From Escherichia phage iGC_PHA_EC001, in sequence record OR437326.1: a stretch of DNA of 64,000 nt. One strand, 5' to 3'. Positions 3,022-63,625 of this stretch are shown here, one piece after another. The notes beneath the pieces were generated by a model. That model saw only the letters and a program-made list of their open reading frames with translations. It was not told the DNA's origin and ran no database searches. A program made the position numbers and the translations under genes. Positions within the stretch are counted from its first letter, which is position 1, and each line of letters begins with the position of its first letter.

Positions 3022-3651
3022 ATGGCAGTGAGTGTTGACCATGTAACAACTTGGGCCAGTATCAATGAAGACGTTAAAAACCTTCTGATTGAAGATTTTA
3101 AATCTTCTCCTAACATTGTCAAGCTCCTCTACATCGTATCCAGTGAAAAGCAAAAGATAGATCAGGCAATGATCTATCTTGCTAAACACCGCTTGATCTC
3201 TACAGCTACAGGCAAATACCTAGATATTCTAGGGGAAGAAATGGGGATCGAACGTAATGGCTCTGATGATGAAGAGTATAGAACAATATTAAAAATCAGG
3301 GCTTACCGCGTAGCCTCATCGGGGACTCGTGGTGACATAATTGATATCTTCGCCCGTTTCACAGGAACAGAACGTGAAACGCTTAATACTTACGTAGGTT
3401 TGAATAAAACCTTTGATGTGTTTTTCTACAACCTGTGTCTTCAATCTGATCAAGCTTTAGAGCAGTTGCTAAGTGTTTTCCCTATTATTAGTAGCTACCG
3501 TCTTGGAGCAAAAGCAGGATCAGCTTTTGGTTTTAGTTCTTATTATGCTACCAAACCGCCTCATGGTATTGGTGGTTTAGGTTCCCTGTACATGGAATCT
3601 ACTGGGGATGAAACAGGACGCATGTGTACGCTTCTCAAGCAAATAGATTAA
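3022..3651 (+). CDS. Baseplate/tail protein I-like
   Basis: 209 aa directly after the J-like gene, in the J-I-fibre-chaperone order seen in P2-type baseplate modules. Confidence 0.35.
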   Translation: MAVSVDHVTTWASINEDVKNLLIEDFKSSPNIVKLLYIVSSEKQKIDQAMIYLAKHRLISTATGKYLDILGEEMGIERNGSDDEEYRTILKIRAYRVASSGTRGDIIDIFARFTGTERETLNTYVGLNKTFDVFFYNLCLQSDQALEQLLSVFPIISSYRLGAKAGSAFGFSSYYATKPPHGIGGLGSLYMESTGDETGRMCTLLKQID

Positions 3652-3660
3652 GGAGTTTAA

Positions 3661-4722
3661 ATGGCGAAGCCAATATATTATCCTGACTGGGCTACACAAA
3701 CTGTAACGCTCCCAGGAACTTTAAACACAAACAAAATTAGACCTAAAGAAACCATCCGCACAATTGGTATGGATTATGGTCAAATCATGACTTGCGAAGA
3801 GATGAACTGGATTCTTAATAATATCGGTTTATGGATTCGCTATTTGGTGGATGATTTTCTTCCAACTTTACCTAATACCTACTTGCCTTTAGTGGGAACT
3901 AAGATTACAATGGCAGGTGATGCTACTGGTGAGGCCACTTGGAACGGTAACAAAGAAGTTACTTTATCTATCCAAGTTCAAGATAACAGTCATAATCACT
4001 TGTCAGCAAACATTACAGATGCTACTAGTTCAACAGTAACACCAAACGTGTTGGTAAAACGTGATGCGGGTGGTGCTATTTATGGTGGTGATGTTTATGT
4101 TAACGGTACTTCCACAACAGATCCTGCAACACTGTTCTTCAAAAACTTTGCAGGACAAACAAATGGTGAGATTTCTGCCGAATACCAAAGTGGAGGTCAG
4201 CTTTATATTTATCGTAGAAATCCTAGCACAGGTAGTGTATCAGCAGGTGTTCGTTTATATGATGCAGGTTATGTTCTAATAGACAGTCCAAGATCAAACA
4301 GTGGACAAGATACTTCTAACGGAAATGCTTTAGTTCGCTTAGATTATCTGAATTCTCGTTTGACTTCTCTTCAGAACACATTGCAGACGAATATTAACAC
4401 TGTTCAAAACAACCTGAATAGTGTTAACAGCAACCTCTCTTCCCGTATAAACAATGTAGAAAGTAATCATCAAAATCAGATTACAAATAACTACAATTAT
4501 GCTAACGGAACATTTGTAAGAGATATTCGTTATACTAGCCAAGGTGTGTATTATCCACCAGGGAACGAGGTTTCTTGGACTTATATCTGTTCTTCTGGTT
4601 ATGTTCTTTCTGGTATTATTGTACAGGAAACAGGACGTAGCTCTGCGGATAACATCGGTGGGGTTTACTTCAAACGCCTCCAGCGCAACGTTAACGGAAA
4701 CTGGTACGATATTGGAGGCTAA
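3661..4722 (+). CDS. Tail fibre protein
   Basis: 353 aa; Asn/Ser/Thr-rich heptad segment LQNTLQTNINTVQNNLNSVNSNLSSRINNVE; immediately followed by a fibre assembly chaperone. Confidence 0.65.
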   Translation: MAKPIYYPDWATQTVTLPGTLNTNKIRPKETIRTIGMDYGQIMTCEEMNWILNNIGLWIRYLVDDFLPTLPNTYLPLVGTKITMAGDATGEATWNGNKEVTLSIQVQDNSHNHLSANITDATSSTVTPNVLVKRDAGGAIYGGDVYVNGTSTTDPATLFFKNFAGQTNGEISAEYQSGGQLYIYRRNPSTGSVSAGVRLYDAGYVLIDSPRSNSGQDTSNGNALVRLDYLNSRLTSLQNTLQTNINTVQNNLNSVNSNLSSRINNVESNHQNQITNNYNYANGTFVRDIRYTSQGVYYPPGNEVSWTYICSSGYVLSGIIVQETGRSSADNIGGVYFKRLQRNVNGNWYDIGG

Positions 4723-16044: not shown

Positions 16045-16622
16045 TCCTTACGTTGTTCAATATGTTCAAGCATATCGTTATACAATGTTTTAAGATGTGG
16101 AACAACTCTTTGATCTTCTGTTTCAAAAAACTTTGTAAGCTGTTCTGCTTTAGCTTTCAACCAACAAAGATGTGCCTCAAGTTCAGTATCAAAACGTCCG
16201 AGCGTTATAATACGACCATCTACTTTTATATGGGCTTTATATTTCTTACGATCTTTTTCGTAATAGAAGCCTACCATAGTGCCATGAGATCTTTTACTTA
16301 CCCTGTAAGCTAAAAACTTGTTAAGATCCCCTGTTACTAAAAGGCAGGTGGCGGGAGAGTAAACTCTCCCTCCTATGATATCTTTATCGAGTTCTAAGTT
16401 TTCCCAGTTATCCCAAGTTTTCAACCAAGTATAGAAGTTGGAAAACAGTTTCCATTCTTCACAGACCGTCACTCCATGATAACAAGGATCACGTTCTTGT
16501 TGGCAAGGGGAGTAACATCTCCCCAACATAGCCATCCATTTCATATAAGCAGGATGAGTTCCATGTTTATCCTTCACCACAATATGTCCATCGAAAACAC
16601 CAACACCATATACTGTTCGCAT
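16032..16622 (-). CDS. AP2-like DNA-binding protein (homing-endonuclease-associated type)
   Basis: YMKWMAMLGRCYSP..YHGVTVCEEW and MVGFYYEKDRKKYKAHIKVDGRIITLGRFDTELEAHLCW resemble phage DNA-binding modules of AP2 type. Confidence 0.35.
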   Translation of the reverse strand: MRTVYGVGVFDGHIVVKDKHGTHPAYMKWMAMLGRCYSPCQQERDPCYHGVTVCEEWKLFSNFYTWLKTWDNWENLELDKDIIGGRVYSPATCLLVTGDLNKFLAYRVSKRSHGTMVGFYYEKDRKKYKAHIKVDGRIITLGRFDTELEAHLCWLKAKAEQLTKFFETEDQRVVPHLKTLYNDMLEHIEQRKEWTR

Positions 16623-34479: not shown

Positions 34480-35454
34480 TTAAACAGCAGCTTCTTCTTT
34501 TTCAGGGAAGATAAAGCTTGCAATAACACCAAGAGCTAATGTGCCTAGAACAATCATCAGACTTACGTTAGGGGAAATATCATGCGGGAGGAATGACCAC
34601 TTGGCATGAAGTGTTTCACCGAACGGGTGATACATAAGTTTAGCACCGACAAATACCAGAACCACAGCAACAGCTTTCTCTAAGTGAACCAGATATTTCA
34701 CAGCCACACTTAACACAAAGAAAAGTGCACGTAAACCAAGAACAGCCATCAGCATTGCAGAATAAACTAGCAGAGGTTCTTGTGTCACACCGATCACAGC
34801 CGGAACTGAATCAAAAGAGAAGACAATATCTGTAAGCTCAATAACAAACACACAAAGAAGAGCAGGAGTTGCATATTTAATACCATTCTTAATGGTGATG
34901 AACTTTTCACCATCCAGTGCATTGTGCACAGGCAGAACTTTACCTACTAAACGAACAGCCCAATGCTTAGAGTAATCAATATCCTCTTCTTCGTCACCAC
35001 CTTTGATGATAGCCACGGCAGACCAAGCTACAATCAAACCGAACAACACTTGGACCGACCAATGAAGGTTAAACAAAGCGGTCCCTGCTGCAACAAAAAT
35101 ACCTCGGAAGACAATGGCTCCTGCAATTCCCCAAAGTAAAATCTTATGTTGGAGATGTGTGCTCTTAATTCCAAAGCTTGCAAAAATTGCCATGAACACC
35201 ATCAGGTTATCTACAGAAAGACTCTTTTCCAACACATAGCCACTTAGGAAAAGCGCGGCAAACTCTTTACCATGTTCTACCCAAATGAATGCGTAATATC
35301 CTAAAGCTAAAGCAATCCAAAAAACAGACCAAAGCAAAGCAGATTTAATTCCAATTTCTTTATTCTCTTTATGACCAAAGAAATCAATACCAATAGACAA
35401 TGCTAAAATACCAACTAAAACAACTACATCAATAATGGGGAAACCGAGTTGCAT
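34480..35454 (-). CDS. terC: TerC-family integral membrane protein
   Basis: Multiple TM helices; EKSLSVDNLMVF signature; 324 aa. Confidence 0.8.
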   Translation of the reverse strand: MQLGFPIIDVVVLVGILALSIGIDFFGHKENKEIGIKSALLWSVFWIALALGYYAFIWVEHGKEFAALFLSGYVLEKSLSVDNLMVFMAIFASFGIKSTHLQHKILLWGIAGAIVFRGIFVAAGTALFNLHWSVQVLFGLIVAWSAVAIIKGGDEEEDIDYSKHWAVRLVGKVLPVHNALDGEKFITIKNGIKYATPALLCVFVIELTDIVFSFDSVPAVIGVTQEPLLVYSAMLMAVLGLRALFFVLSVAVKYLVHLEKAVAVVLVFVGAKLMYHPFGETLHAKWSFLPHDISPNVSLMIVLGTLALGVIASFIFPEKEEAAV

Positions 35455-35455
35455 T

Positions 35456-35530
35456 CTTTTCTCCTCTCTTTGCGGGGAACTATTCCCCGCTTCATGTGAT
35501 ATATCTTACTCTTTTTAAGAACTATGTCAA
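35456..35530 (-). promoter_or_regulatory. Promoter plus 5' stem-loop cassette upstream of terC
   Basis: On - strand: TTGACA, spacer, TAAGAT, then hairpin GCGGGGAA-tag-TTCCCCGC, then AGAGAGGAG and ATG; same architecture as the early-region cassettes. Confidence 0.5.
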
Positions 35531-35533
35531 CAC

Positions 35534-49983: not shown

Positions 49984-50097
49984 TTGTTTTCTCCTTTTGT
50001 TTGGTAGTAGTTGATCTTAACAAGATTAAAAAGTATGTCAATACTTGATCTGAAATTATTTTCAGGTATCATATATGAACATTAACAAGAGAGGTAG

Positions 50098-56368: not shown

Positions 56369-56520
56369 CCTATACAAACCCTTGTCTTTTTCAGTTTGCA
56401 TCACTAGGATTCGATCTGAGTGGGTTCCTGAAGGTCTGCCAATAAGATTAAAGGTTATCTCAAACTCCCATTACCTATTATCTCAAAAATCCCTCAAATT
56501 ATTTAAACTTTTTAAGAATT

Positions 56521-56566
56521 TACAAAAGTGAAAGTTGAAAACCAAAATTTAAAGTTTAGGAAAATT
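56521..56566. repeat. AT-rich direct repeat, copy 1 (iteron-like)
   Basis: TACAAAAGTGAAAGTTGAAAACCAAAATTTAAAGTTTAGGAAAATT; about 80% identical to copy 2. Confidence 0.45.
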
Positions 56567-56658
56567 ATCTTAAAATGTCAGATACAAAACAAAACTCAAA
56601 AGTCAAGGAAAATTTTAAAAATTTTGCGCGCCCACAGTATTTAAAGTTTTTTTGCTTT

Positions 56659-56704
56659 TACAAAAATGAAAGTACAAAAGCAAAATTTAAAGTTTACAAA
56701 AATT
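56659..56704. repeat. AT-rich direct repeat, copy 2 (iteron-like)
   Basis: TACAAAAATGAAAGTACAAAAGCAAAATTTAAAGTTTACAAAAATT. Confidence 0.45.
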
Positions 56705-56714
56705 TATGCAGATG

Positions 56715-56825
56715 GGAATGAGAAGAGTTCTCATATGGAAATGCAAATGATAATGATTCGCATTTAGGTTTATAAATGAGATTGATTCTTATTTGATAAG
56801 GTAAATGATAATCATTCTCATTTAG
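56715..56825. promoter_or_regulatory. Cluster of Fur-box-like palindromes
   Basis: AATGAGAAGAGTTCTCAT (56717..56734), AAATGATAATGATTCGCATT (about 14/19 to GATAATGATAATCATTATC), AATGATAATCATTCTC (about 16/19 including an exact AATGATAATCATT 13-mer). Confidence 0.4.
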
Positions 56826-57348: not shown

Positions 57349-57456
57349 GGTGTCGCCCTTTCTTTGTTGTGCGCCCTGGTTGGCGCGGTAGAAAGATGAT
57401 AGCCCTTTCCTTTATATATAGCAAGCAAAAAGAAAATAAAAAAGATTGAAAAAGTG

Positions 57457-57514
57457 GTTGACGTTCGCCAGGTGGCGGCATAATATTTACCACGTAGCGC
57501 GGCAATGGTGCCGC
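57457..57514 (+). promoter_or_regulatory. Early promoter plus 5' stem-loop cassette
   Basis: TTGACG, 17 bp, TAATAT, then hairpin GCGGCAATGGTGCCGC, then GGAG and ATG. Confidence 0.5.
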
Positions 57515-57535
57515 TCACTATTTGGAGTTAAGATC

Positions 57536-57733
57536 ATGGCAACATTGCACATTGTGGCGAAAGCTGGACAAATCAACGTAATAGTAAACGGTTTTACTGA
57601 GTTCAGTCATCCCCAGGATGATCATGAAACGGTTTTATCTTTCATTGATTCCCTGTTAGAAATGGGAGTCATTACAGAAGACCAGCACGCTACAAAATGC
57701 AAGCGCGTTAATCAAATTGCAGGGATAGAATAA
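57536..57733 (+). CDS. Early hypothetical protein
   Basis: Start set at ATG 57536 downstream of the cassette (the listed 57446 start would run through the promoter). Confidence 0.4.
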   Translation: MATLHIVAKAGQINVIVNGFTEFSHPQDDHETVLSFIDSLLEMGVITEDQHATKCKRVNQIAGIE

Positions 57734-57739
57734 AAAGTA

Positions 57740-57798
57740 TTGACAACAAACAACAACCTGATAAGATGTATCACATAGGGCGGGAAGTGGTTTCCCGC
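57740..57798 (+). promoter_or_regulatory. Early promoter plus 5' stem-loop cassette
   Basis: TTGACA, 16 bp, TGaTAAGAT extended -10, hairpin GGGCGGGAA-gtggt-TTCCCGC. Confidence 0.55.
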
Positions 57799-57823
57799 TC
57801 GTAACAGAAGAGAGATTATCATC

Positions 57824-58096
57824 ATGGCATCATATAGCGCAACAATGATCGTAGCTGGCACAACTGGTAAACCTATGAGCGGTGTCGGATCTTTCGCTAA
57901 TATCAATATTGACGGGCGTTTATCCCTGGACGCAGCGATTGCCATTGCACGGGAAACATTTAAGAAAGAATGTAATTTCAACAAGCAAGATTATCTCGGT
58001 TTCGCTATTGAAAAAACCGCGCGCTTTGTTGATTATAAAAGCCCGAAAATGGTTGATACTACACTAAAAGCGCAAGATGTAGCGTTTTTGCTTTAA
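57824..58096 (+). CDS. Early hypothetical protein
   Basis: 90-aa ORF after cassette; AGAGAG site. Confidence 0.4.
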   Translation: MASYSATMIVAGTTGKPMSGVGSFANINIDGRLSLDAAIAIARETFKKECNFNKQDYLGFAIEKTARFVDYKSPKMVDTTLKAQDVAFLL

Positions 58097-58099
58097 GGC

Positions 58100-58156
58100 T
58101 TGACATTAACGAATAATTTGTTAATATGTTACATAAAGCGGGAATAGTTCCCGCTA
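58100..58156 (+). promoter_or_regulatory. Early promoter plus 5' stem-loop cassette
   Basis: TTGACA, 16 bp, TAATAT, hairpin AGCGGGAA-tag-TTCCCGCT. Confidence 0.55.
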
Positions 58157-58172
58157 TTTGTAAGGTGGTAGA

Positions 58173-58430
58173 ATGTTTTACATCAAATTAAAAGGTCACG
58201 TGATCGCGTTCAAAGATAACGCTTTTTACAGATTAGCAAAATATGCGTTAATACATCCCCACTATGTTTATATAAGGGGGCGTGACGAAATAAATATCTT
58301 TGATCAAACAACATGCGAAAACATCGAGATCCGCAAGGTTGGCGTACGTGATTATCGTACATCTTTCTACCCTTGCAAGGATTCAGCAAGTCTTTTTAAG
58401 GTATGTCAATTGTTGAAAAAAGGTGGTTAA
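58173..58430 (+). CDS. Early hypothetical protein
   Basis: 85-aa ORF after cassette. Confidence 0.4.
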   Translation: MFYIKLKGHVIAFKDNAFYRLAKYALIHPHYVYIRGRDEINIFDQTTCENIEIRKVGVRDYRTSFYPCKDSASLFKVCQLLKKGG

Positions 58431-58431
58431 T

Positions 58432-58989
58432 ATGGGCCGCGAATATGTGATCCAGTCTTGGGTAAAACATGAAGCAGATGATCCGCGCATCATTCCCGAT
58501 CATCTTATCGATGAATCCACGGGATATAGCGGTGAGCAAATAGGTAACAGATTAGCACGTAGTAACGGCAACATAAAAGCGCGTTATGTGCGCCCTGGCT
58601 GGCTGGCAAATGGTAACGCTGATTTATCCAGTGCGGAAGATGCGAGCGACGGCGCGAAAGATAATCCTTTGTACAAAATTGATCCGGCTTTTCGTGTCCT
58701 GGATGAATACCCCAGCAAGATAGCGGCGCTTGATGAAGCATTGGAAAGTAAGCGCATCTCCTGGACCGCTTACAACATGGCAAAAAACGTACTTGATGGT
58801 AAATTGATTCAAGCTGAAAGAAAATTAGCCAAAATTGCAGCCATAGCCCAGGAGGAAGACGAGGAGACAACGGAAGAGGAAGAGTACGAAGAGATCCCGC
58901 CGTTGTTGTGTGTTGATGCTTTTCCTGATTATCAGCCGACAGAGGAAGAAAAAAGGATCGCACTAGAAAACTTTGAAAATAGTCTTTGA
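58432..58989 (+). CDS. Early hypothetical protein with acidic C-terminal region
   Basis: ATG 58432 after AAAGGTGG; 185 aa. Confidence 0.4.
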   Translation: MGREYVIQSWVKHEADDPRIIPDHLIDESTGYSGEQIGNRLARSNGNIKARYVRPGWLANGNADLSSAEDASDGAKDNPLYKIDPAFRVLDEYPSKIAALDEALESKRISWTAYNMAKNVLDGKLIQAERKLAKIAAIAQEEDEETTEEEEYEEIPPLLCVDAFPDYQPTEEEKRIALENFENSL

Positions 58990-59044
58990 CATATCGCCGC
59001 CACTGGCATAATATTTACCACGTAGGGCGGCAATGGTGCCGCTC
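58986..59044 (+). promoter_or_regulatory. Early promoter plus 5' stem-loop cassette
   Basis: TTGACA, 17 bp, TAATAT, hairpin GGGCGGCAATGGTGCCGCTC. Confidence 0.55.
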
Positions 59045-59071
59045 ATAGTGAAATTATGCAAGAGGTTTACA

Positions 59072-59167
59072 ATGATTGATAAAGAAAATAGCTTGACGGT
59101 TGGAACGATTAACGCTATCATTCTTGCCGTTCCATTTTGGATTGTATTAGCGGCTATTATTTTCTAA
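59072..59167 (+). CDS. Possible 31-aa hydrophobic peptide
   Basis: Short ORF MIDKENSLTVGTINAIILAVPFWIVLAAIIF between two cassettes; below the ORF-track size cutoff. Confidence 0.2.
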   Translation: MIDKENSLTVGTINAIILAVPFWIVLAAIIF

Positions 59168-59176
59168 AAAATATTC

Positions 59177-59237
59177 TTGACAACGTTTTTTAATCTGATA
59201 AGATGTATCACATAGGGCGGCGGAATACTTCCCCGCC
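59177..59237 (+). promoter_or_regulatory. Early promoter plus 5' stem-loop cassette
   Basis: TTGACA, 16 bp, TGaTAAGAT, hairpin GGCGGGGAA-gta-TTCCGCCGCC read on either strand. Confidence 0.55.
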
Positions 59238-59258
59238 AAAACAAAAAAGGGTAACACA

Positions 59259-59621
59259 ATGAGCAAGCAAATCAATACTATCATGTTTAATCTGGTATCT
59301 TTCCGCGATGATATGAAAAATTTACCACGTGAAACGGTTGATATTCATGTTTCAGCTTATCGCGCCCTTATTGATATGTTACCGCTAAAACGTGATCAAC
59401 ATGCCGCTAATATGATGCTTAATGCTATGCTTAAAAAGATGATTCAAACGGATCTTACTCTGGCGTATGAGTATCAAGGGCGCTTATATGCTACTTACAA
59501 CAAAGCGGTACCTGGTCTGGGAAGTACCGAAGAGTTGCACGGCTTAAACCTGGATCAAAACACTTGGGATAGTATGCGCCGCGTTATGGTATGGGCCGAA
59601 AGCGGTAAAATTTACGAATAA
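59259..59621 (+). CDS. Early hypothetical protein
   Basis: 120-aa ORF after cassette. Confidence 0.4.
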   Translation: MSKQINTIMFNLVSFRDDMKNLPRETVDIHVSAYRALIDMLPLKRDQHAANMMLNAMLKKMIQTDLTLAYEYQGRLYATYNKAVPGLGSTEELHGLNLDQNTWDSMRRVMVWAESGKIYE

Positions 59622-59626
59622 AAACG

Positions 59627-59685
59627 GTTGACACTGTTTAAAATTCTGGTATAGTTTATCACGTAGGGCGGCAATGGTGCCGCCA
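59627..59685 (+). promoter_or_regulatory. Early promoter plus 5' stem-loop cassette
   Basis: TTGACA, 17 bp, TGgTATAGT, hairpin GGCGGCA-atg-GTGCCGCC. Confidence 0.55.
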
Positions 59686-59704
59686 ATAATGAAAGGTTAA
59701 CATC

Positions 59705-59884
59705 ATGGCTATCATTGCAAAAACTGAGATTATAGGTTTAGATCCGATCCTCCTGGCTTATGAGGAAACTTTAAAAATGTATGTAGTGACCTATGGTGAT
59801 TATGTGCGTGAATACGAATACATTGATCTTGCTTTCGAATGTTACATTCGCCAGGTCAATAAAGCCTATAACGATTATCGTTAA
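59705..59884 (+). CDS. Early hypothetical protein (59 aa)
   Basis: ORF after cassette, below the ORF-track size cutoff. Confidence 0.35.
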   Translation: MAIIAKTEIIGLDPILLAYEETLKMYVVTYGDYVREYEYIDLAFECYIRQVNKAYNDYR

Positions 59885-59902
59885 AAGTTTTAGTCTTATA
59901 CT

Positions 59903-59931
59903 ATTGACAATGAGTGATAGTATAAGCATAA
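59903..59931 (+). promoter_or_regulatory. Early promoter (no GC stem-loop; degenerate cassette)
   Basis: TTGACA followed by AT-rich -10 region (TATAAG/CATAAT) upstream of 59980. Confidence 0.35.
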
Positions 59932-59979
59932 TAACTTTTATCGGGAATACTCCTAACTAATCAAAAGAGATTAAAGACT

Positions 59980-60345
59980 ATGGCTAAAAATATCAATGTT
60001 TCTGCTTATGCTACCCTGGCTAACACTGCTAAAATTGAACTATCCAGCATTGAAGCGGTACATATTAGCGCCCGTCGCTGGTTTCAAAAGTCTTATGGTA
60101 ATACTTATTTCTCTTTGATGGTTGACGTTGAGATCGGCGGTAAACTGATCGAAGTGGTTAACGTTCCGTTTCAATATGGCTATGGGGATCATTTTGATAC
60201 CGTCGCCCTAGAAGAGTTTAGCAAGGTTATCAACCTGGAAGGTAAAGAGTTTTCAAATTATGCCTACCTTTCCCGTTTTTGCCGTGACAATGGGATCACT
60301 GTATACAGTCATGCGAGCGATGTAAAACGTAAAAAAGATTTATAA
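59980..60345 (+). CDS. Early hypothetical protein
   Basis: 121-aa ORF. Confidence 0.4.
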   Translation: MAKNINVSAYATLANTAKIELSSIEAVHISARRWFQKSYGNTYFSLMVDVEIGGKLIEVVNVPFQYGYGDHFDTVALEEFSKVINLEGKEFSNYAYLSRFCRDNGITVYSHASDVKRKKDL

Positions 60346-60351
60346 AAAGCA

Positions 60352-60411
60352 TTGACAGCACGAATAAAAAGAGTAAACTGTATTACATAGAGAGCGGGAA
60401 CACTTCCCGCC
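60352..60411 (+). promoter_or_regulatory. Early promoter plus 5' stem-loop cassette
   Basis: TTGACA; GAGTAAACTGTATTACATAG box; hairpin GCGGGAA-cac-TTCCCGC. Confidence 0.55.
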
Positions 60412-60434
60412 TCACTGAAAAAGAGAGAAAAATC

Positions 60435-60674
60435 ATGGCTAAATCTAAAATGTACAACGGTCACAAAAACAAAACTCATTGGAATGTAAGCCTTTGGATT
60501 AATAACGATGAATCGTTATACCGGTTGGCCCAAGATTTTATTAACGCTAATGCTAATCGTAATGATGCGGCGCGGGATATGATGCTTTTTCTGGAACAAA
60601 CTGGACAAGATAAAACGCCAGACGGTTTCAAATATAGCACTACTGCGATCCGTGCCGCGATGGTTGGAATGTAA
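60435..60674 (+). CDS. Early hypothetical protein
   Basis: 79-aa ORF after cassette. Confidence 0.4.
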   Translation: MAKSKMYNGHKNKTHWNVSLWINNDESLYRLAQDFINANANRNDAARDMMLFLEQTGQDKTPDGFKYSTTAIRAAMVGM

Positions 60675-60684
60675 TAAAAACAGT

Positions 60685-60744
60685 TGACAACGTTTAAAAT
60701 TAGTGTAAGATGTATCACATAGGGCGGGAAGTGGTTTCCCGCCA
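60685..60744 (+). promoter_or_regulatory. Early promoter plus 5' stem-loop cassette
   Basis: TTGACA; GTGTAAGATGTATCACATAG box; hairpin GGGCGGGAA-gtggt-TTCCCGCC. Confidence 0.55.
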
Positions 60745-60764
60745 AAACAGAGAGATTAAAGATT

Positions 60765-60992
60765 ATGGCTATCAATATTGTTCGCGTATCCGGCACCGTT
60801 GGCACTTCCCAGGTTATTGCAGTTGTAACAAACAAAAAGATTAATGATGTATGTGAGATCTTGAATAAGTGGGCTATTGCTAATTTTGGGGAATATGCAA
60901 GCGTCGAGTACATCGAATCCTACCAGGTGCCAACCATCAGCCTAACCGATCTCAACGTTGATCGCCTGTTATGCCTGGATGAATTGATCTGA
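60765..60992 (+). CDS. Early hypothetical protein
   Basis: 75-aa ORF after cassette. Confidence 0.4.
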   Translation: MAINIVRVSGTVGTSQVIAVVTNKKINDVCEILNKWAIANFGEYASVEYIESYQVPTISLTDLNVDRLLCLDELI

Positions 60993-61001
60993 AAAAGATT
61001 G

Positions 61002-61059
61002 TTGACACCGGAAAGAAAAAGAGTAAACTGTATTACGTAGGGCGGCAATGGTGCCGCTC
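61002..61059 (+). promoter_or_regulatory. Early promoter plus 5' stem-loop cassette
   Basis: TTGACA; GAGTAAACTGTATTACGTAG box; hairpin GGGCGGCAATGGTGCCGCTC. Confidence 0.55.
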
Positions 61060-61082
61060 ACAACAAAAGAGAGATTATTACG

Positions 61083-61295
61083 ATGGCTAATATCCGCACA
61101 CTGTTAAAAAATGCAAGTCAAGTTTTATTTTCTGATCACGATCATTTTAATAAAGATATTACAGGCGTGAAGAATATCAAAGATGTAAAAAGTGTTATGG
61201 GTATATATTGCAATGTTAAACGTGTTGGAACTTTCGGTGATAAAGTATTGTACCAATCAGGGGATTACAATTTTACTTTGACAATTATTTCATAA
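61083..61295 (+). CDS. Early hypothetical protein
   Basis: 70-aa ORF after cassette. Confidence 0.4.
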   Translation: MANIRTLLKNASQVLFSDHDHFNKDITGVKNIKDVKSVMGIYCNVKRVGTFGDKVLYQSGDYNFTLTIIS

Positions 61296-61301
61296 AACCG
61301 C

Positions 61302-61363
61302 TTGCAATCTTAATAAAATAAAGTAAACTGTATTACATCAAGGCGGCGGAATGGTCCACCGCC
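61302..61363 (+). promoter_or_regulatory. Early promoter plus 5' stem-loop cassette
   Basis: TTGCAA; AAGTAAACTGTATTACATCA box; hairpin GGCGGTGGA-ccatt-CCGCCGCC read on either strand. Confidence 0.5.
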
Positions 61364-61387
61364 TAACAAAGAGAAGAGGAAAATATC

Positions 61388-61609
61388 ATGATCACTTTCG
61401 CTATTGTCGCCGTTGTCGCTGGTCAGGTTTACGTAAACGATACATTCACCACAGAAGACAAGGCCGCAGGAGACATAACCGCCGTTTACAACGAGTGCAA
61501 GGCAGTAGAAAGGATGTTAGCGCCTTGTATGTTAATGAGTGAACGCCAGGACGGGATAACAGTGTTTACTAACATTGAAACAGGGTACCAAATGGTAGTA
61601 ACAAAATAA
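61388..61609 (+). CDS. Early hypothetical hydrophobic/acidic protein
   Basis: 73-aa ORF with AGAGAAGAGGA site upstream; preferred over the overlapping Arg-rich frame 61351..61542. Confidence 0.4.
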   Translation: MITFAIVAVVAGQVYVNDTFTTEDKAAGDITAVYNECKAVERMLAPCMLMSERQDGITVFTNIETGYQMVVTK

Positions 61610-61612
61610 AGC

Positions 61613-61670
61613 TTGACACGGATTTAATTTTCAGTAAACTGTTACACGTAGGGCGGGAATAGTTCCCGCT
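61613..61670 (+). promoter_or_regulatory. Early promoter plus 5' stem-loop cassette
   Basis: TTGACA; CAGTAAACTGTTACACGTAG box; hairpin GGGCGGGAA-tag-TTCCCGCT. Confidence 0.55.
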
Positions 61671-61687
61671 AAAAAGAGAGAAAGACC

Positions 61688-62041
61688 ATGAAAGCACAAA
61701 ATGCAATTAAAGAGTACATCCTTGCCGCTATCGATTTTAATGATTACGGTATTACAACCGAAAAAGAGAAGATCGCGGAATTGATGCGCCGTTTTAATTC
61801 CGAGTACTGGTACCCTGATAATCAATCACGTTTTAATTATAGTATTGTTAAAGCACTTGCATCATGGTTACAAGGCTTGCCATCAGATATTAACATAGCT
61901 TTCGAATATTGGGAAATTGATCGTTTGTTAACATCCTGGGGATACATTAAAGAGAATAGCAGCGATGATAAAATCCAACGAGAAAGGGAAAATTATTGGC
62001 TTTATATTGCAGGCGTGATCCTTGCTTGCTCTTATGAATGA
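61688..62041 (+). CDS. Early hypothetical protein
   Basis: 117-aa ORF after cassette. Confidence 0.4.
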   Translation: MKAQNAIKEYILAAIDFNDYGITTEKEKIAELMRRFNSEYWYPDNQSRFNYSIVKALASWLQGLPSDINIAFEYWEIDRLLTSWGYIKENSSDDKIQRERENYWLYIAGVILACSYE

Positions 62042-62047
62042 TAAACC

Positions 62048-62102
62048 TTGACAATTTTACAAAACAGTTTAAATTAATAATATAGCGGCAATGGTGCCGC
62101 TC
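62048..62102 (+). promoter_or_regulatory. Early promoter plus 5' stem-loop cassette
   Basis: TTGACA, AT-rich -10 region (TAATAATAT), hairpin AGCGGCAATGGTGCCGCT. Confidence 0.5.
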
Positions 62103-62120
62103 ATATAAAGAGGAAACAAA

Positions 62121-62267
62121 ATGAATACATCTAATCGCGCAGAAAAAATTCAATCTTCCAAGATCCGCAAGGCCTGGAACGAGGAAGTGATCCGCAAAGG
62201 CGACAAGCGTAATAAAACAAAGCGCGGGAAGAGTGACAAATATAATTGGATGGATTTAGAGGATTAA
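62121..62267 (+). CDS. Early small basic protein (48 aa)
   Basis: ORF MNTSNRAEKIQSSKIRKAW..; AAAGAGGAAA site; followed by terminator. Confidence 0.35.
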   Translation: MNTSNRAEKIQSSKIRKAWNEEVIRKGDKRNKTKRGKSDKYNWMDLED

Positions 62268-62274
62268 CATAACA

Positions 62275-62302
62275 AGGGCGCACCAAGCGCCCTTTCTTTT
62301 TA
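62275..62302 (+). terminator. Rho-independent terminator
   Basis: AGGGCGC-accaa-GCGCCCT followed by TTCTTTTTAC. Confidence 0.55.
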
Positions 62303-62322
62303 CATGTAGAGGATAAACAAAA

Positions 62323-62508
62323 ATGACTTTAAACGAGCTTAAAACAGCCTACAACGCAACATTAAAAATAGCCGTGCGTTACCGTGACGAATACGGTTTT
62401 ATTGCGCAGGGCGTTATCCTGGGCTTTTCTGACGATGGTTTGATCTATGTTGATGCACATCACAACAAGGTTAAACCGGAAAACGTTATCAGTATAAAAT
62501 ATCTTTAA
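62323..62508 (+). CDS. Early hypothetical protein
   Basis: 61-aa ORF. Confidence 0.35.
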   Translation: MTLNELKTAYNATLKIAVRYRDEYGFIAQGVILGFSDDGLIYVDAHHNKVKPENVISIKYL

Positions 62509-62514
62509 AAGTGG

Positions 62515-62573
62515 TTGACACCATAACCGGACCTGTTAAACTGTATTACATCAGGCGGGGAATAGTTCCCACC
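62515..62573 (+). promoter_or_regulatory. Early promoter plus 5' stem-loop cassette
   Basis: TTGACA; TGTTAAACTGTATTACATCA box; hairpin GGCGGGGAA-tag-TTCCCACC. Confidence 0.5.
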
Positions 62574-62592
62574 ATACAAAAAGGTAAATATT

Positions 62593-62799
62593 ATGATCAC
62601 CGCAAAACAAGAAAAAATCATTATCGACGTTGCAGCCGTAGCCGCTATTGCTATTATCGGTACCTACTATGACACCGCGCGTCCTTCCTCCTTGCATGAG
62701 ATCGCCGCCGTTGCATCAGTTGGCGTACTGTTTTACGTTGGTAAACGCTATTTATCACCAATGATTAACAAGCTGACACCGTGGAAAAATAAAGGTTGA
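62593..62799 (+). CDS. Early small membrane protein
   Basis: 68 aa with hydrophobic IIDVAAVAAIAIIGTYY and IAAVASVGVLFYV. Confidence 0.4.
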   Translation: MITAKQEKIIIDVAAVAAIAIIGTYYDTARPSSLHEIAAVASVGVLFYVGKRYLSPMINKLTPWKNKG

Positions 62800-62852
62800 T
62801 CCTGTTTTATATTGTGTTATAGTTATCGTGTAGGGCGGCAATGGTGCCGCGC
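62796..62852 (+). promoter_or_regulatory. Early promoter plus 5' stem-loop cassette
   Basis: TTGATC; TGTTATAGT -10-like; hairpin GGGCGGCAATGGTGCCGCGCCC. Confidence 0.45.
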
Positions 62853-62870
62853 CCCTTTGAGGATGCAATC

Positions 62871-63155
62871 ATGAGTAAAGCTAACACCGTGCTAATGTTT
62901 TCCCTGATTAATGATCCCGCTTACTTGTCCAACATGACGCAGGAGGGTAACACATTAACGGCAACATTCACCAATAAGCTTGACCGAGTGATCATCATCT
63001 CACTGAAAACAGTTAGTAAAGGCTTTTACTCGTTAGCTTATCATTGGATCACTGATACCGATGAGACAAGCCAGGACTATAGCGCCCCTTTCCCTGAATC
63101 AATGGCACGGGAGATCATCGCCGCCGTTGTAAATGATGGTTTGTTTACTGGATAA
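62871..63155 (+). CDS. Early hypothetical protein
   Basis: Start set at ATG 62871 after GAGGATG; the listed 62841 start would translate the cassette hairpin. Confidence 0.4.
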   Translation: MSKANTVLMFSLINDPAYLSNMTQEGNTLTATFTNKLDRVIIISLKTVSKGFYSLAYHWITDTDETSQDYSAPFPESMAREIIAAVVNDGLFTG

Positions 63156-63173
63156 AATAATTCAGAAAAAGGC

Positions 63174-63230
63174 TTGCAATCATTTTGGGATAATGTATAT
63201 TTAATGCATAGGGCGGCGGGAATAGTTCCC
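63174..63230 (+). promoter_or_regulatory. Early promoter plus 5' stem-loop cassette
   Basis: TTGCAA, spacer, TAATGT; hairpin GGCGGCGGGAA-tag-TTCCC. Confidence 0.45.
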
Positions 63231-63253
63231 AAAGCAAACGAGAGGATTACACG

Positions 63254-63373
63254 ATGAGCAAGTACACAGTAGAATACACGGTAGAGAATCCGGCAGTATC
63301 CGAAGGTAAAAAGATGACATTTGCCATCAGTATAATCGCTTTCGTTGTCACTATCTTATCAATCATCTTATAA
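63254..63373 (+). CDS. Possible 39-aa membrane peptide
   Basis: MSKYTVEYTVENPAVSEGKKMTFAISIIAFVVTILSIIL; GAGAGGA site. Confidence 0.3.
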   Translation: MSKYTVEYTVENPAVSEGKKMTFAISIIAFVVTILSIIL

Positions 63374-63383
63374 GGTGCACACC

Positions 63384-63545
63384 ATGAAAACAACAGATAT
63401 TATCAAAGAGATCGCCCTTGCCGCTGACGTTGAGATCGAGGAAGTGATCGCGCTCAATCTTACAGAAAACGATCTGCGCAACTATGAAGCGGAAAGCGTG
63501 AAAGCAAGTGGCGCGGTCCTGGCATATAATCCGGCTAACAAATAG
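63384..63545 (+). CDS. Early hypothetical acidic protein (53 aa)
   Basis: ATG 63384 directly after the previous stop; the listed ORF 63345 starts upstream in the same frame. Confidence 0.35.
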   Translation: MKTTDIIKEIALAADVEIEEVIALNLTENDLRNYEAESVKASGAVLAYNPANK

Positions 63546-63602
63546 TTTGACAAGCTGAATCAACCTGATAAGATGTATCACATAGGGGCGACAAGCGCCC
63601 CG
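63546..63602 (+). promoter_or_regulatory. Early promoter plus 5' stem-loop cassette
   Basis: TTGACA; TGaTAAGATGTATCACATAG box; hairpin GGGGCG-acaa-GCGCCCC. Confidence 0.55.
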
Positions 63603-63625
63603 CCTAACAGAAGAGAGAAAAAATC

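What the first reader, a model, noticed from the sequence alone, without database searches (positions are those of the whole stretch)
57440..63602. Array of about 17 stereotyped promoter plus 5' stem-loop cassettes, each ahead of a small early gene
Nearly every small + strand gene in the last 6.5 kb is preceded by the same about 60-bp unit: TTGACA, a 16-17 bp spacer, a -10 element, then a GC-rich hairpin placed at the predicted transcript 5' end, then a purine-rich ribosome-binding site. At least three sequence subfamilies recur (..TGATAAGATGTATCACATAGGGCGGGAA.., ..GTAAACTGTATTACATAG.., ..CATAATATTTACCACGTAGGGCGGCAATGGTGCCGC..). An identical unit sits on the opposite strand ahead of terC (35456..35530). 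This resembles the mobile promoter-early-stem-loop cassettes described in T4-type phages and suggests a mechanism for shuffling small genes; the hairpins could also stabilise mRNA 5' ends or bind a regulator.
Basis: seen in the sequence. Interest (0 to 1): 0.65.

Follow-up and report, generated by a model that had tools for sequence, protein, structure and literature searches.

The report
Repeated promoter-plus-hairpin early gene cassettes
A large E. coli phage places the same 75-90 bp unit (a strong host-type promoter, a GC-rich hairpin at the very start of the transcript, and a ribosome site) ahead of most of its small early genes, and related phages appear to have swapped genes and hairpins by recombination between these units.

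Summary
The window comes from a phAPEC8-like myovirus (Phapecoctavirus; 98% identical to phage tuntematon). Between 57458 and 63625 there are 17 + strand units, each made of TTGACA-like -35, a 16-17 bp spacer, a -10, a GC hairpin, an A-rich leader with SD, and ATG. Fifteen score E<=4e-6 with a covariance model. Two (59904, 63174) have decayed hairpins. The rest of the window, on both strands, holds one more, ahead of a TerC gene (35530..35455, - strand).

The hairpin starts 10-11 nt after the -10, which is +1 to +6 of the predicted transcript. It never has a U-tract (0 of 128 unique copies). Its stem sequences differ but remain paired (92-94% against 80-87% shuffled).

Among eight relatives, gene modules come and go at cassette boundaries. 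One gene carries different hairpin types in different phages, and junction cassettes are chimeric.

My reading is a portable early-expression cassette. The 5' hairpin most likely protects the mRNA 5' end, which is inferred. The repeats serve as substrates for homologous recombination, which comparison supports.

It works like the T4-type PeSL but differs in anatomy and lineage. phAPEC8's GenBank record already annotates the hairpin 20-mers as "PHIRE promoters". I rate it a new variant of a known kind, of moderate interest.

The parts
57458..57535 (+). cassette c1: -35 TTGACG 57458-63, -10 TAATAT 57481-86, hairpin 57499-57514 (GCGGCAATGGTGCCGC), ATG 57536
   Evidence: R2 E=1.9e-10
57740..57823 (+). 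cassette c2: -35 TTGACA, TG-extended -10 TAAGAT 57762-67, hairpin 57778-57800 (9 bp), ATG 57824
   Evidence: z -2.8; E=2.6e-11
58100..58172 (+). cassette c3: -10 TAATAT 58122-27, hairpin 58137-58155 (AGCGGGAATAGTTCCCGCT), ATG 58173
   Evidence: (z -3.0)
58986..59071 (+). cassette c4: the -35 TTGACA contains the stop codon of the upstream gene; hairpin 59025-59044; ATG 59072 (31-aa ORF)
   Evidence: E=1.5e-12
59177..59258 (+). cassette c5: -10 TAAGAT 59199-204, hairpin 59216-59237, ATG 59259
59628..59704 (+). cassette c6: -10 TATAGT 59650-55, hairpin 59667-59684, ATG 59705
   Evidence: E=1.3e-14
59904..59979 (+). cassette c7: good promoter (TTGACA-17-CATAAT) but a decayed hairpin (59943-59954, 4 bp); ATG 59980
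   Evidence: (z -1.0); not detected by R1 or R2; in three relatives this unit is replaced by a full cassette (family 17)
60352..60434 (+). cassette c8: -10 TAAACT, hairpin 60390-60413 (10 bp), ATG 60435 (DUF7249 protein)
   Evidence: (z -4.6)
60684..60764 (+). cassette c9: -10 TAAGAT, hairpin 60723-60743, ATG 60765
   Evidence: (z -3.4)
61002..61082 (+). cassette c10: -10 TAAACT, hairpin 61037-61061 (the stem can include the predicted +1), ATG 61083
   Evidence: z -3.5; E=5.7e-15
61302..61387 (+). cassette c11: -35 TTGCAA, hairpin 61341-61364, ATG 61388. This is the chimeric junction left by the absence of 2-3 modules that tuntematon has
61613..61687 (+). cassette c12: hairpin 61652-61670, ATG 61688
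   Evidence: (z -3.1)
62048..62120 (+). cassette c13: shorter -10-to-hairpin distance, hairpin 62080-62106, ATG 62121
   Evidence: (z -3.3)
62274..62302 (+). the only canonical intrinsic terminator in the array (8-bp GC stem followed by a T-run); probable common 3' end of transcripts from c1-c13
62515..62592 (+). cassette c14: hairpin 62554-62573 (7 bp with a mismatch), ATG 62593
   Evidence: z -1.6; E=3.9e-6
62796..62870 (+). cassette c15: -35 TTGATC overlaps the upstream stop codon; hairpin 62833-62853; ATG 62871
   Evidence: E=2e-9
63174..63253 (+). cassette c16: -35 TTGCAA; hairpin partly decayed (63218-63230, 5 bp; the 3' arm of the outer stem is lost); ATG 63254
   Evidence: E=6.7; z -0.5
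63547..63625 (+). cassette c17: -10 TAAGAT, hairpin 63585-63601 (GGGGCGACAAGCGCCCC), ATG 63626
   Evidence: (z -3.1)
35455..35530 (-). lone cassette of the same family ahead of a TerC-family membrane protein gene (34480..35454): -35 35530-25, -10 35508-03, hairpin 35490-35472
   Evidence: z -4.1; E=5.5e-9

Best explanation
The units are portable early-gene expression cassettes of a phAPEC8-like (Phapecoctavirus) phage.

How one cassette works: each is a near-consensus host sigma-70 promoter, often with an upstream A-tract and a TG-extended -10. Transcription probably starts at the conserved C|R step 8 nt after the -10. The RNA then begins (A/G)UA followed directly by a 6-10 bp GC-rich stem-loop. 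A roughly 20-nt A-rich, unstructured leader with the Shine-Dalgarno sequence follows, then the ORF.

Hairpin function (inferred): with only 0-5 unpaired 5' nucleotides, the hairpin most likely shields the 5' triphosphate end from RppH and from 5'-end-dependent RNase E attack. The ribosome would cover the short leader. Together these would prolong the life of early messages. In read-through transcripts from upstream promoters, the same hairpins would act as internal barriers that protect processed ends.

Recombination role (supported by comparison): about 85 bp, from -35 into the first codons (many genes start ATGGCTA), is repeated some 20-25 times in one orientation. The cassettes therefore also serve as substrates for homologous recombination and gene conversion. 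This deletes, inserts and replaces whole promoter-plus-ORF modules and swaps hairpin types between cassettes, and it makes the early region hyperplastic.

Status of each step. Shown: the anatomy, the fixed geometry, the pairing with compensatory changes, the lack of a terminator tail, and the mosaic relatives. Inferred: the start site, early timing, the stabilising role and the recombination pathway.
For: Identity:
- The array is 98.2% identical to Escherichia phage tuntematon, a Phapecoctavirus.

Promoter quality:
- The promoter scan finds 48 sigma-70-like sites against 23.3 +/- 5.1 in shuffles, with the 10-11/12 matches concentrated at the cassettes.

Specificity:
- The covariance models find 15 array copies plus 1 terC copy in 128 kb of searched strand.
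- All 139 hits in the window and eight relatives lie on the coding strand.

Geometry:
- The hairpin 5' base is 10-11 nt after the -10 in 85 of 143 unique copies. Most exceptions are stems that extend further outward.
- Position 7 after the -10 is C in 92 of 128 copies and position 8 is a purine in 108 of 128.
- There are 0-5 unpaired nt before the stem in the 15 intact window copies.
- The Shine-Dalgarno sequence is left unpaired in all predicted leaders, and 13 of 18 leaders have z<=-2.

Structure rather than sequence is kept:
- 94.1% of cells are paired against 87.2% shuffled (0 of 500 shuffles reach it). One pair reads CG:47, GC:35 and none unpaired.
- Across three genera, 91.8% are paired against 79.9% shuffled, and 4 pairs carry double changes.
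- More than 10 distinct stems occupy the same position.
- The sense strand is more stable than the antisense strand in 32 hairpins against 11.

Not a terminator:
- 0 of 128 copies have 5 or more T in the 8 nt after the stem. The tail is 53% A.

Recombination:
- Synteny breaks against eight relatives fall at cassettes.
- The window lacks modules that tuntematon has. The junction is the left-parent cassette fused to the right-parent gene, within about 25 nt of shared SD-ATG sequence.
- Gene family 11 carries hairpin types C, D or E in different phages behind an unchanged promoter half. Families 17, 19 and 22 behave likewise.

Background:
- RNase E cuts more than 10-fold faster with an accessible 5'-P than with a 5'-PPP or a base-paired 5' end. 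The same review describes the RppH pathway and cites the 5' stem-loop stabiliser papers (ompA, papA) (PMC3997798).
Against: - No start site, timing or half-life has been measured for this phage group in anything I could find. The +1 is predicted only from spacing and the C|R motif.
- If the true start lay more than about 5 nt upstream of the stem, the protective argument would weaken.
- Most covariation comes from a handful of hairpin 'alleles' that spread by duplication or conversion. Independent events are few, and the alignments were fitted to the model.
- Breakpoints at intergenic cassettes are also expected simply because indels that break genes are purged by selection.
- The invariant RTAGGGCGG...CCGC core is more conserved than a purely structural role requires. 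It could reflect a sequence-specific partner, or only homogenisation by gene conversion.
- Other consensus promoters in the same window do without a hairpin.
Confidence: 0.55

Rival explanations
1. The hairpins are transcription terminators, attenuators or insulators for RNA polymerase arriving from upstream cassettes, as reported for T4-type PeSLs. Each small gene would then be expressed mainly from its own promoter.
For: - In phages RB49 and phi1, a PeSL stem-loop placed between a promoter and lacZ cut expression as strongly as rrnB T1. One of the five PeSL subclasses has the stem-loop downstream of the -10 (PMC2839356).
- Here promoters recur every 300-400 bp, with only one canonical terminator in 6 kb. 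Some insulation would therefore be useful.
Against: - No copy has a U-tract (0 of 128).
- The hairpin lies inside the transcript of its own promoter, at about +3 to +25. An efficient terminator there would abort the cassette's own mRNA.
- Its position is fixed relative to the -10, not to the upstream stop codon.
Confidence: 0.15
2. The hairpin with its conserved flank (RTAGGGCGG...CCGC) is the binding site of a phage or host protein. Candidates are an early shut-off repressor or roadblock acting on the DNA palindrome at +4 to +25, or an RNA-binding factor (translational repressor, antiterminator of the boxB/N kind, or nuclease guide) that co-regulates all cassette genes.
For: - The outer stem and the preceding TAG are nearly invariant across three genera.
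- The element marks one promoter class only. Other consensus promoters in the window lack it.
- Its location just after +1 is typical of operators and of nut-like sites.
Against: - Inner stem and loop sequences differ widely between co-resident copies (loops AUGG, UAG, GUGGU, CAC, ACAAG). That argues against one sequence-specific reader.
- G-U pairs and the sense-strand stability bias favour an RNA structure over a DNA palindrome.
- No candidate binding protein was identified. All neighbouring genes are of unknown function.
- No Rfam family matches.
Confidence: 0.17
3. The conserved 20-mer is itself a phage-specific promoter, as annotated in the phAPEC8 GenBank record ('putative promoter determined with PHIRE').
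For: - The phAPEC8 record JX561091 annotates GTAGGGCGGCAATGGTGCCG and its variants as promoters. It annotates the sigma-70 part separately as a host-dependent promoter.
- The string TCACATAGGG loosely recalls T7-type promoters. This resemblance is from memory.
Against: - PHIRE only reports repeated 20-mers.
- The motif always sits a fixed 8-11 nt behind a near-consensus sigma-70 promoter.
- It is a hairpin with compensatory changes.
- Related phages are reported to lack an RNA polymerase gene and T4-type late factors (PMC7344957, PMC3606486).
Confidence: 0.03
4. The hairpins act at the DNA level as structure-specific recombination signals, comparable to integron attC sites or cruciform targets for a phage nuclease, and these signals actively drive cassette mobility.
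For: - The arrays are made of ORF plus a structured repeat.
- Structure is conserved with variable sequence.
- Module turnover is frequent.
- Arbiol et al. raised this idea for PeSLs (PMC2839356).
Against: - Crossover points are not fixed. They lie in the SD-ATG stretch, between the -10 and the stem, or after the stem, as expected for homologous exchange.
- The stems are short, perfect palindromes without the extrahelical bases of attC. This comparison is from memory.
- No recombinase was seen near the array.
Confidence: 0.05

Closest known systems
PeSL (promoter-early stem-loop) cassettes of T4-type phages (RB49/phi1, PST/T4, nt-1/KVP40; Arbiol et al. 2010, Comeau et al. 2014)
   Same: - Intergenic units of about 80-100 bp: a near-consensus sigma-70 early promoter with an upstream AT-rich tract, a GC stem-loop, SD and ATG.
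- They are repeated tens of times ahead of ORFans in a hyperplastic early region.
- Indels and replacements between close relatives are bounded by the units, with crossovers inside them.
   Different: - The PeSL stem-loop was shown to terminate transcription. Its position varies: upstream of, between or overlapping the -35 and -10, and only sometimes after the -10.
- Here it is fixed at about +3 to +5 of the transcript and has no U-tract.
- The phage lineage differs (Stephanstirmvirinae and Vequintavirinae, not Straboviridae).
- Mini-circles have not been examined here.
5'-terminal stem-loop mRNA stabilisers (E. coli ompA and papA leaders; the 5' hairpin of T7 gene 10 mRNA, the last from memory)
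   Same: - A stable hairpin lies within a few nucleotides of the 5' end.
- A short ribosome-covered leader follows.
- There is no sequence requirement beyond pairing.
   Different: - Those are single, experimentally tested leaders.
- Here the element is a multicopy family whose 5' ends and half-lives have not been measured.
Sigma-70-like early promoter arrays described for rV5-like phages (rV5: 33 promoters; Certrevirus CB7/CR3: AAAA-N3-TGTTGAC-N19-TATAAT concentrated among short hypothetical ORFs)
   Same: - The same promoter type, upstream A-tract and location among small early ORFs (PMC3606486, PMC7344957).
- The cassette family itself is found in phi92 and in an rV5-like phage.
   Different: - Those papers describe the promoter only.
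- The hairpin fixed behind it, its subtypes and the cassette-mediated mosaicism are not mentioned in the papers I could read.
phAPEC8 GenBank annotation (JX561091): 'putative promoter determined with PHIRE' and 'host dependent promoter determined with MEME'
   Same: These are the same sequences at the homologous positions, so the repeat itself has been on record since 2012.
   Different: The record annotates two separate promoters, not one promoter followed by a 5' hairpin.

Membership tests
T4-type PeSL | Near-consensus sigma-70 early promoter with an upstream AT-rich tract in the intergenic unit | tested here: met
   12 of 17 units have an exact TTGACA, the spacer is 16-17 bp, 7 have a TG-extended -10, and an AAAAA tract lies upstream
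T4-type PeSL | A stem-loop is part of the same unit | tested here: met
   15 of 17 units have hairpins of -9 to -16 kcal/mol
T4-type PeSL | The stem-loop functions as a terminator or attenuator of upstream transcription | not testable with these tools
   Sequence criteria argue against it: 0 of 128 copies have a U-tract, and the hairpin lies inside its own transcript. A functional assay is needed.
T4-type PeSL | The stem-loop position varies relative to the promoter (five subclasses, mostly upstream of or overlapping the -35 and -10) | tested here: not met
   The position is fixed 10-11 nt after the -10. One atypical tuntematon unit does have a stem overlapping the -10.
T4-type PeSL | Concentrated in hyperplastic regions ahead of ORFans, and associated with indels and replacements between close relatives | tested here: met
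T4-type PeSL | Recombination between units yields chimeric units and mini-circles | tested here: inconclusive
   Chimeric units were seen. Mini-circles cannot be tested in silico.
T4-type PeSL | Resident in T4-like myoviruses (Straboviridae) | tested here: not met
   The window is a Phapecoctavirus of the Stephanstirmvirinae
5'-terminal stem-loop mRNA stabiliser | Stable hairpin with no more than a few unpaired nucleotides at the transcript 5' end | tested here: inconclusive
   0-5 unpaired nt if the start is at the conserved C|R 8 nt after the -10. The start site is predicted, not mapped.
5'-terminal stem-loop mRNA stabiliser | Pairing rather than sequence is what is conserved | tested here: met
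   Compensatory CG/GC changes and 92-94% of cells paired. The outer stem, however, is invariant.
5'-terminal stem-loop mRNA stabiliser | Removing the stem shortens mRNA half-life in an RppH- and RNase E-dependent way | not testable with these tools
   Needs rifampicin-chase experiments.
Intrinsic (rho-independent) terminator | GC-rich hairpin immediately followed by a U-tract | tested here: not met
   0 of 128 copies. The one true terminator in the array is at 62274-62302.
Lambda-type nut site (boxA + boxB) | A boxA sequence next to a small hairpin with a conserved GNRA-like loop, plus an N-like protein | tested here: not met
   The loops are heterogeneous. By eye there is no consistent boxA. 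No Rfam hit. No N-like protein was identified.
Any Rfam family | Score at or above the family's gathering threshold | tested here: not met
   0 hits in 64 kb. The best sub-threshold hit in the array has E=0.36.

The most novel reading that the evidence does not exclude
The 5' hairpin is a 'self' mark on one class of early phage messages. It would let them survive while the phage, or a host defence, accelerates 5'-end-dependent decay of host mRNA, for example through an Srd-like activator of RNase E. Alternatively it could be the common handle by which a still unknown phage factor switches the whole early ORFan regulon off. In both cases the same structured repeat doubles as the recombination linker that keeps the regulon evolvable. 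I found no T4 Srd homologue by tblastn in the roughly half-genome examined. The rV5 paper reports only a remote PSI-BLAST Srd relative (PMC3606486).
Probability: 0.15. Interest if true: 0.7.

Novelty: new variant of a known kind. Interest (0 to 1): 0.45.

Why it matters
Phages of the phAPEC8, phi92 and rV5 groups are widely used therapy and biocontrol candidates. About a sixth of their genes are small early ORFans of unknown function.

If confirmed, the finding would matter in four ways:
- The ORFans sit in a regular array of self-contained modules (promoter, 5' hairpin, RBS) that recombine with each other. This explains why the region differs between near-identical isolates.
- It corrects an existing database annotation, in which the hairpin is called a "PHIRE promoter".
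- It extends the PeSL idea of regulatory cassettes as recombination linkers to a second, unrelated myovirus lineage with a different cassette design.
- The 85-bp unit would be a compact, naturally optimised expression part for E. coli: a strong promoter with a stabilising leader. The family offers about 100 natural variants for testing how 5' hairpins set mRNA lifetime during infection.

Tried and rejected
- Rfam, at gathering thresholds over the whole window and at permissive thresholds over the array, matched no family.
- I looked for the cassette in 5,426 complete E. coli genomes and found no match, so it is not a host repeat such as REP.
- I tested the intrinsic-terminator reading by counting T after the stem and rejected it.
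- I considered a nut/boxA-boxB reading. The loops are heterogeneous and boxA similarity is weak and inconsistent, so I rejected it.
- I considered a T7-like promoter resemblance (TCACATAGGG). There is no supporting evidence and a sigma-70 promoter sits directly upstream.
- I searched for a T4 Srd homologue, which could give a reason to shield 5' ends. tblastn of T4 Srd against the window and 11 loci found nothing below E=2.
- I checked whether tuntematon's two annotated repeat_regions bracket the array as copies of one repeat. They are unrelated local repeats.
- MAFFT alignments of the hairpin region were not consistent with the structure. I therefore built a covariance model from one subtype and re-aligned with it.
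- Literature searches for a prior description of the hairpin in phAPEC8-, rV5- or PVP-SE1-like phages found promoter descriptions only.
- The phAPEC8 genome announcement is not held. One literature search was too broad to be useful.

Full report
**Source of the window.** The array region (57440-63602) is 98.2% identical over its full length to Escherichia phage tuntematon. It is 90-97% identical to many other Phapecoctavirus genomes (phAPEC8-like myoviruses of about 150 kb, subfamily Stephanstirmvirinae). In these genomes the region is annotated almost entirely as small hypothetical proteins.

**Check of the observation.** Reading the sequence and aligning the units confirms 17 units on the + strand. 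One search gives exact coordinates for each: -35, spacer, -10, predicted start, hairpin and ATG.

- Twelve units have an exact TTGACA. The spacer is 16 bp in 14 units and 17 bp in 3. Seven have a TG-extended -10. Most have an AAAAA tract a few bases upstream of the -35.
- The -35 usually abuts or overlaps the stop codon of the preceding gene, so the intergenic space is essentially one cassette of 73-88 bp.
- The generic promoter scan finds 48 sites in 56-64 kb against 23.3 +/- 5.1 in shuffles. The 10-11/12 matches are concentrated at the cassettes.
- I built a covariance model (R1) from 16 copies of one hairpin subtype and ran it with filters off over both strands of the whole window. It returned 16 hits with E<=0.02: 15 array units and one - strand unit at 35464-35533. 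The next best hit was E=0.52.
- A broader model (R2) gives the same 16 hits at E<=4e-6, with the next at E=0.099.
- Units c7 (59904) and c16 (63174) keep the promoter but have decayed hairpins and are missed by both models.
- Seventeen of 21 + strand genes in the stretch carry a unit.
- The - strand unit precedes a gene whose product is a TerC-family membrane protein (PF03741, E=3e-40). It has the same architecture but is not identical in sequence.

**Anatomy.**

- Over 143 unique copies from the window and relatives, the first paired base lies 10 or 11 nt after the -10 in 85 copies. Most other values come from stems that extend further outward.
- The seventh base after the -10 is C in 92 of 128 copies and the eighth is a purine in 108 of 128. 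The bases that follow are T-A-G-G-G-C.
- A start at that C|R step is the standard expectation for a sigma-70 promoter. This is established knowledge, not measured here. It gives RNAs beginning (A/G)UAGGGCGG, with 0-5 unpaired nucleotides before the stem in the 15 intact window copies.
- In some copies (for example c10) the stem can include +1 itself.
- Predicted leaders fold into the single 5' hairpin with the Shine-Dalgarno region unpaired. Thirteen of 18 have z<=-2 against dinucleotide shuffles.
- The stretch from stem to ATG is 14-27 nt, 53% A, and carries an AGAGAG/AAGGAG-type SD.
- None of 128 unique copies has 5 or more T in the 8 nt after the stem. The only canonical terminator in the array is at 62274-62302.

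**Whether the pairing is selected.**

- On the model-fitted alignment of 139 copies (96 distinct), 94.1% of cells pair against 87.2% in shuffles (0 of 500 shuffles reach it). One inner pair is CG in 47 copies and GC in 35, and is never unpaired. An outer pair is GU, GC or AU.
- On 33 copies from three genera (window, phi92, and the rV5-like phage naswa), 91.8% pair against 79.9% in shuffles. Four pairs show changes on both sides, and the slid controls collapse.
- More than ten distinct stems occupy the same position. Examples are GCGGCA/TGCCGC, GCGGGAA/TTCCCGC, GGCGGCGGA/TCCACCGCC, GGGGCG/CGCCCC, GGGGGGC/GCCCCACC and GGGGCA/TGCCC.
- Sense-strand RNA folds are more stable than antisense folds in 32 unique hairpins against 11.
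- Caveats: the variants are few 'alleles' spread by duplication or conversion, so independent events are few. The alignments are fitted to the structure. The outer GCGG/CCGC core never varies.

**Comparative evidence for shuffling.** I fetched the homologous region from eight relatives.

- BLAST synteny blocks between the window and each relative end at cassettes in nearly all cases.
- A protein-family map shows a conserved backbone. It is interrupted by presence/absence or replacement of some 15 small-gene families.
- The window itself lacks two or three modules that tuntematon has (L001 15949-16413). The window's c11 is a chimera. Its promoter and hairpin come from the cassette left of the missing segment and its gene from the right. 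The switch lies within about 25 nt of shared SD-ATG-first-codon sequence.
- Behind an unchanged promoter half, gene family 11 carries three different hairpins in different phages. In ECO340P2 its hairpin and leader equal those of the window's c17. Families 19 and 22 also carry different hairpin types.
- Family 17 has the decayed c7 unit in the window but a complete neighbouring cassette in three relatives where the intervening gene is gone.
- Crossover points therefore vary, as expected for homologous exchange and gene conversion between about 85-bp repeats whose similarity runs into the first codons (many genes begin ATGGCTA).
- A caution: breakpoints in intergenic DNA are also what purifying selection alone would leave. 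The chimeric cassettes are the stronger evidence.

**Distribution.**

- An 87-nt cassette query finds 150 phage records. All are phages of about 135-160 kb from this group (Phapecoctavirus, Justusliebigvirus/phi92, rV5-like Vequintavirus), with up to 11 BLAST-detectable places per record.
- The models find 10 or more copies in the early regions of phi92 and of the rV5-like phage naswa. In naswa some array promoters lack a hairpin.
- The array continues beyond the window end in tuntematon, to about 22 kb of L001.
- There is no match in 5,426 complete E. coli genomes and no Rfam family.
- Elsewhere in the window, consensus promoters ahead of - strand genes (50041, 47956, 30198, 28802, 21278) have no hairpin. 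The hairpin therefore marks one promoter class.

**What is already known.**

- T4-type PeSLs (PMC2839356, PMC4122927) are the closest described system. They are sigma-70 promoter plus stem-loop cassettes ahead of ORFans in hyperplastic regions, which mediate indels and form mini-circles.
- In PeSLs the stem-loop is a demonstrated terminator and its position varies. It lies mostly between or over the -35 and -10, or upstream in PST and nt-1.
- For rV5-like phages, arrays of sigma-70-like early promoters among short ORFs are published (PMC3606486, PMC7344957). Those papers do not mention a hairpin.
- The phAPEC8 GenBank record annotates the hairpin 20-mers (for example GTAGGGCGGCAATGGTGCCG) as 'putative promoter determined with PHIRE'. 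It annotates the upstream part as 'host dependent promoter determined with MEME'.
- The repeat has thus been on record since 2012 but was read as two promoters. I found no paper describing the composite cassette, its hairpin subtypes or its mosaicism in this lineage. The phAPEC8 announcement itself is not in the library.

**Mechanism.**

- The best-supported reading is a compact expression cassette whose transcript starts with a protective stem-loop.
- RNase E acts more than 10-fold faster on an accessible 5' monophosphate than on a triphosphate or a base-paired end. RppH-dependent decay starts at the 5' end. 5' stem-loops stabilise ompA and papA mRNAs (review PMC3997798 and the references it lists).
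- A hairpin within 0-5 nt of the 5' end, followed by about 20 nt that a bound ribosome would cover, fits that design. This step is inferred.
- The terminator reading is disfavoured by sequence. The PHIRE-promoter reading is disfavoured by position and pairing. A site-specific recombination signal is disfavoured by the variable crossovers.
- A regulator-binding role cannot be excluded, and the invariant TAGGGCGG...CCGC core keeps it alive.
- A speculative link to phage-induced host mRNA decay (Srd-like factors) found no support in the sequences examined.

**Verdict.** Membership fails on two defining features: the variable, terminator-type stem-loop and the T4-type host lineage. I class it as a new variant of a known kind. 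It is of moderate interest because it is widespread in therapeutically used phages, is mis-annotated in the databases, and can be tested directly.

Noticed in passing
window 56717-56825: Four Fur-box-like palindromes (AAATGAnAATnATTCnCATTT) spaced 29 bp apart lie in the roughly 800-bp non-coding stretch just upstream of the array. The best has 16/19 identity to the E. coli Fur consensus (recalled from memory) at 56801. They could be regulatory, an origin, or a Fur-titrating element.
   Followed up: partly
window 56495-56704: AT-rich direct repeats lie in the same non-coding stretch: 72 nt in two copies and 29 nt in three copies. tuntematon annotates a repeat_region about 40 nt downstream, over the Fur-box-like palindromes.
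   Followed up: no
L009 (phAPEC8 JX561091) 634-653, 1523-1542, 2539-2558, 3393-3412, 3825-3844: The GenBank record calls the hairpin 20-mers 'putative promoter determined with PHIRE'. They are the 5' hairpins of the cassettes, so this is a likely mis-annotation.
   Followed up: yes
L001 (tuntematon) 16120-16195: An atypical unit sits ahead of one of the modules missing from the window. It is TTGACT-N17-TATAAT with a stem (TAGCGCC/GGCGCTA) that overlaps the -10. This is the arrangement most common in T4-type PeSLs.
   Followed up: no
window - strand: -35 hexamers at 50041, 47956, 30198, 28802, 21278: Near-consensus sigma-70 promoters ahead of - strand genes have short leaders and no hairpin. 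This is a second promoter class in the same phage.
   Followed up: partly
window 57824, 59705, 59980, 60435, 60765, 61083: Many array genes begin ATGGC(T/A), encoding Met-Ala, so cassette similarity extends into the coding sequence. Two observed crossovers lie exactly there.
   Followed up: partly
window 61083-61295 (homologue of tuntematon_38): This 70-aa protein is annotated 'phosphoribosylpyrophosphate synthetase' in tuntematon and other records. It matches only a PHROG of unknown function and is far too short for that enzyme, so the name is probably propagated in error.
   Followed up: partly
window 60435-60674: This is the only array protein with a Pfam hit: DUF7249 (E=1.4e-13).
   Followed up: no
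window 62274-62294: A symmetric GC hairpin (AAGGGCGCACCAAGCGCCCTT) scores as a terminator on both strands. It is followed by a gene (62323-62508) that has no cassette of its own.
   Followed up: no
one search hit list: Near-identical genomes are deposited as Campylobacter, Klebsiella, Acinetobacter and Pseudomonas phages. Either the host range is unusually broad or the hosts are mis-assigned in the records.
   Followed up: no
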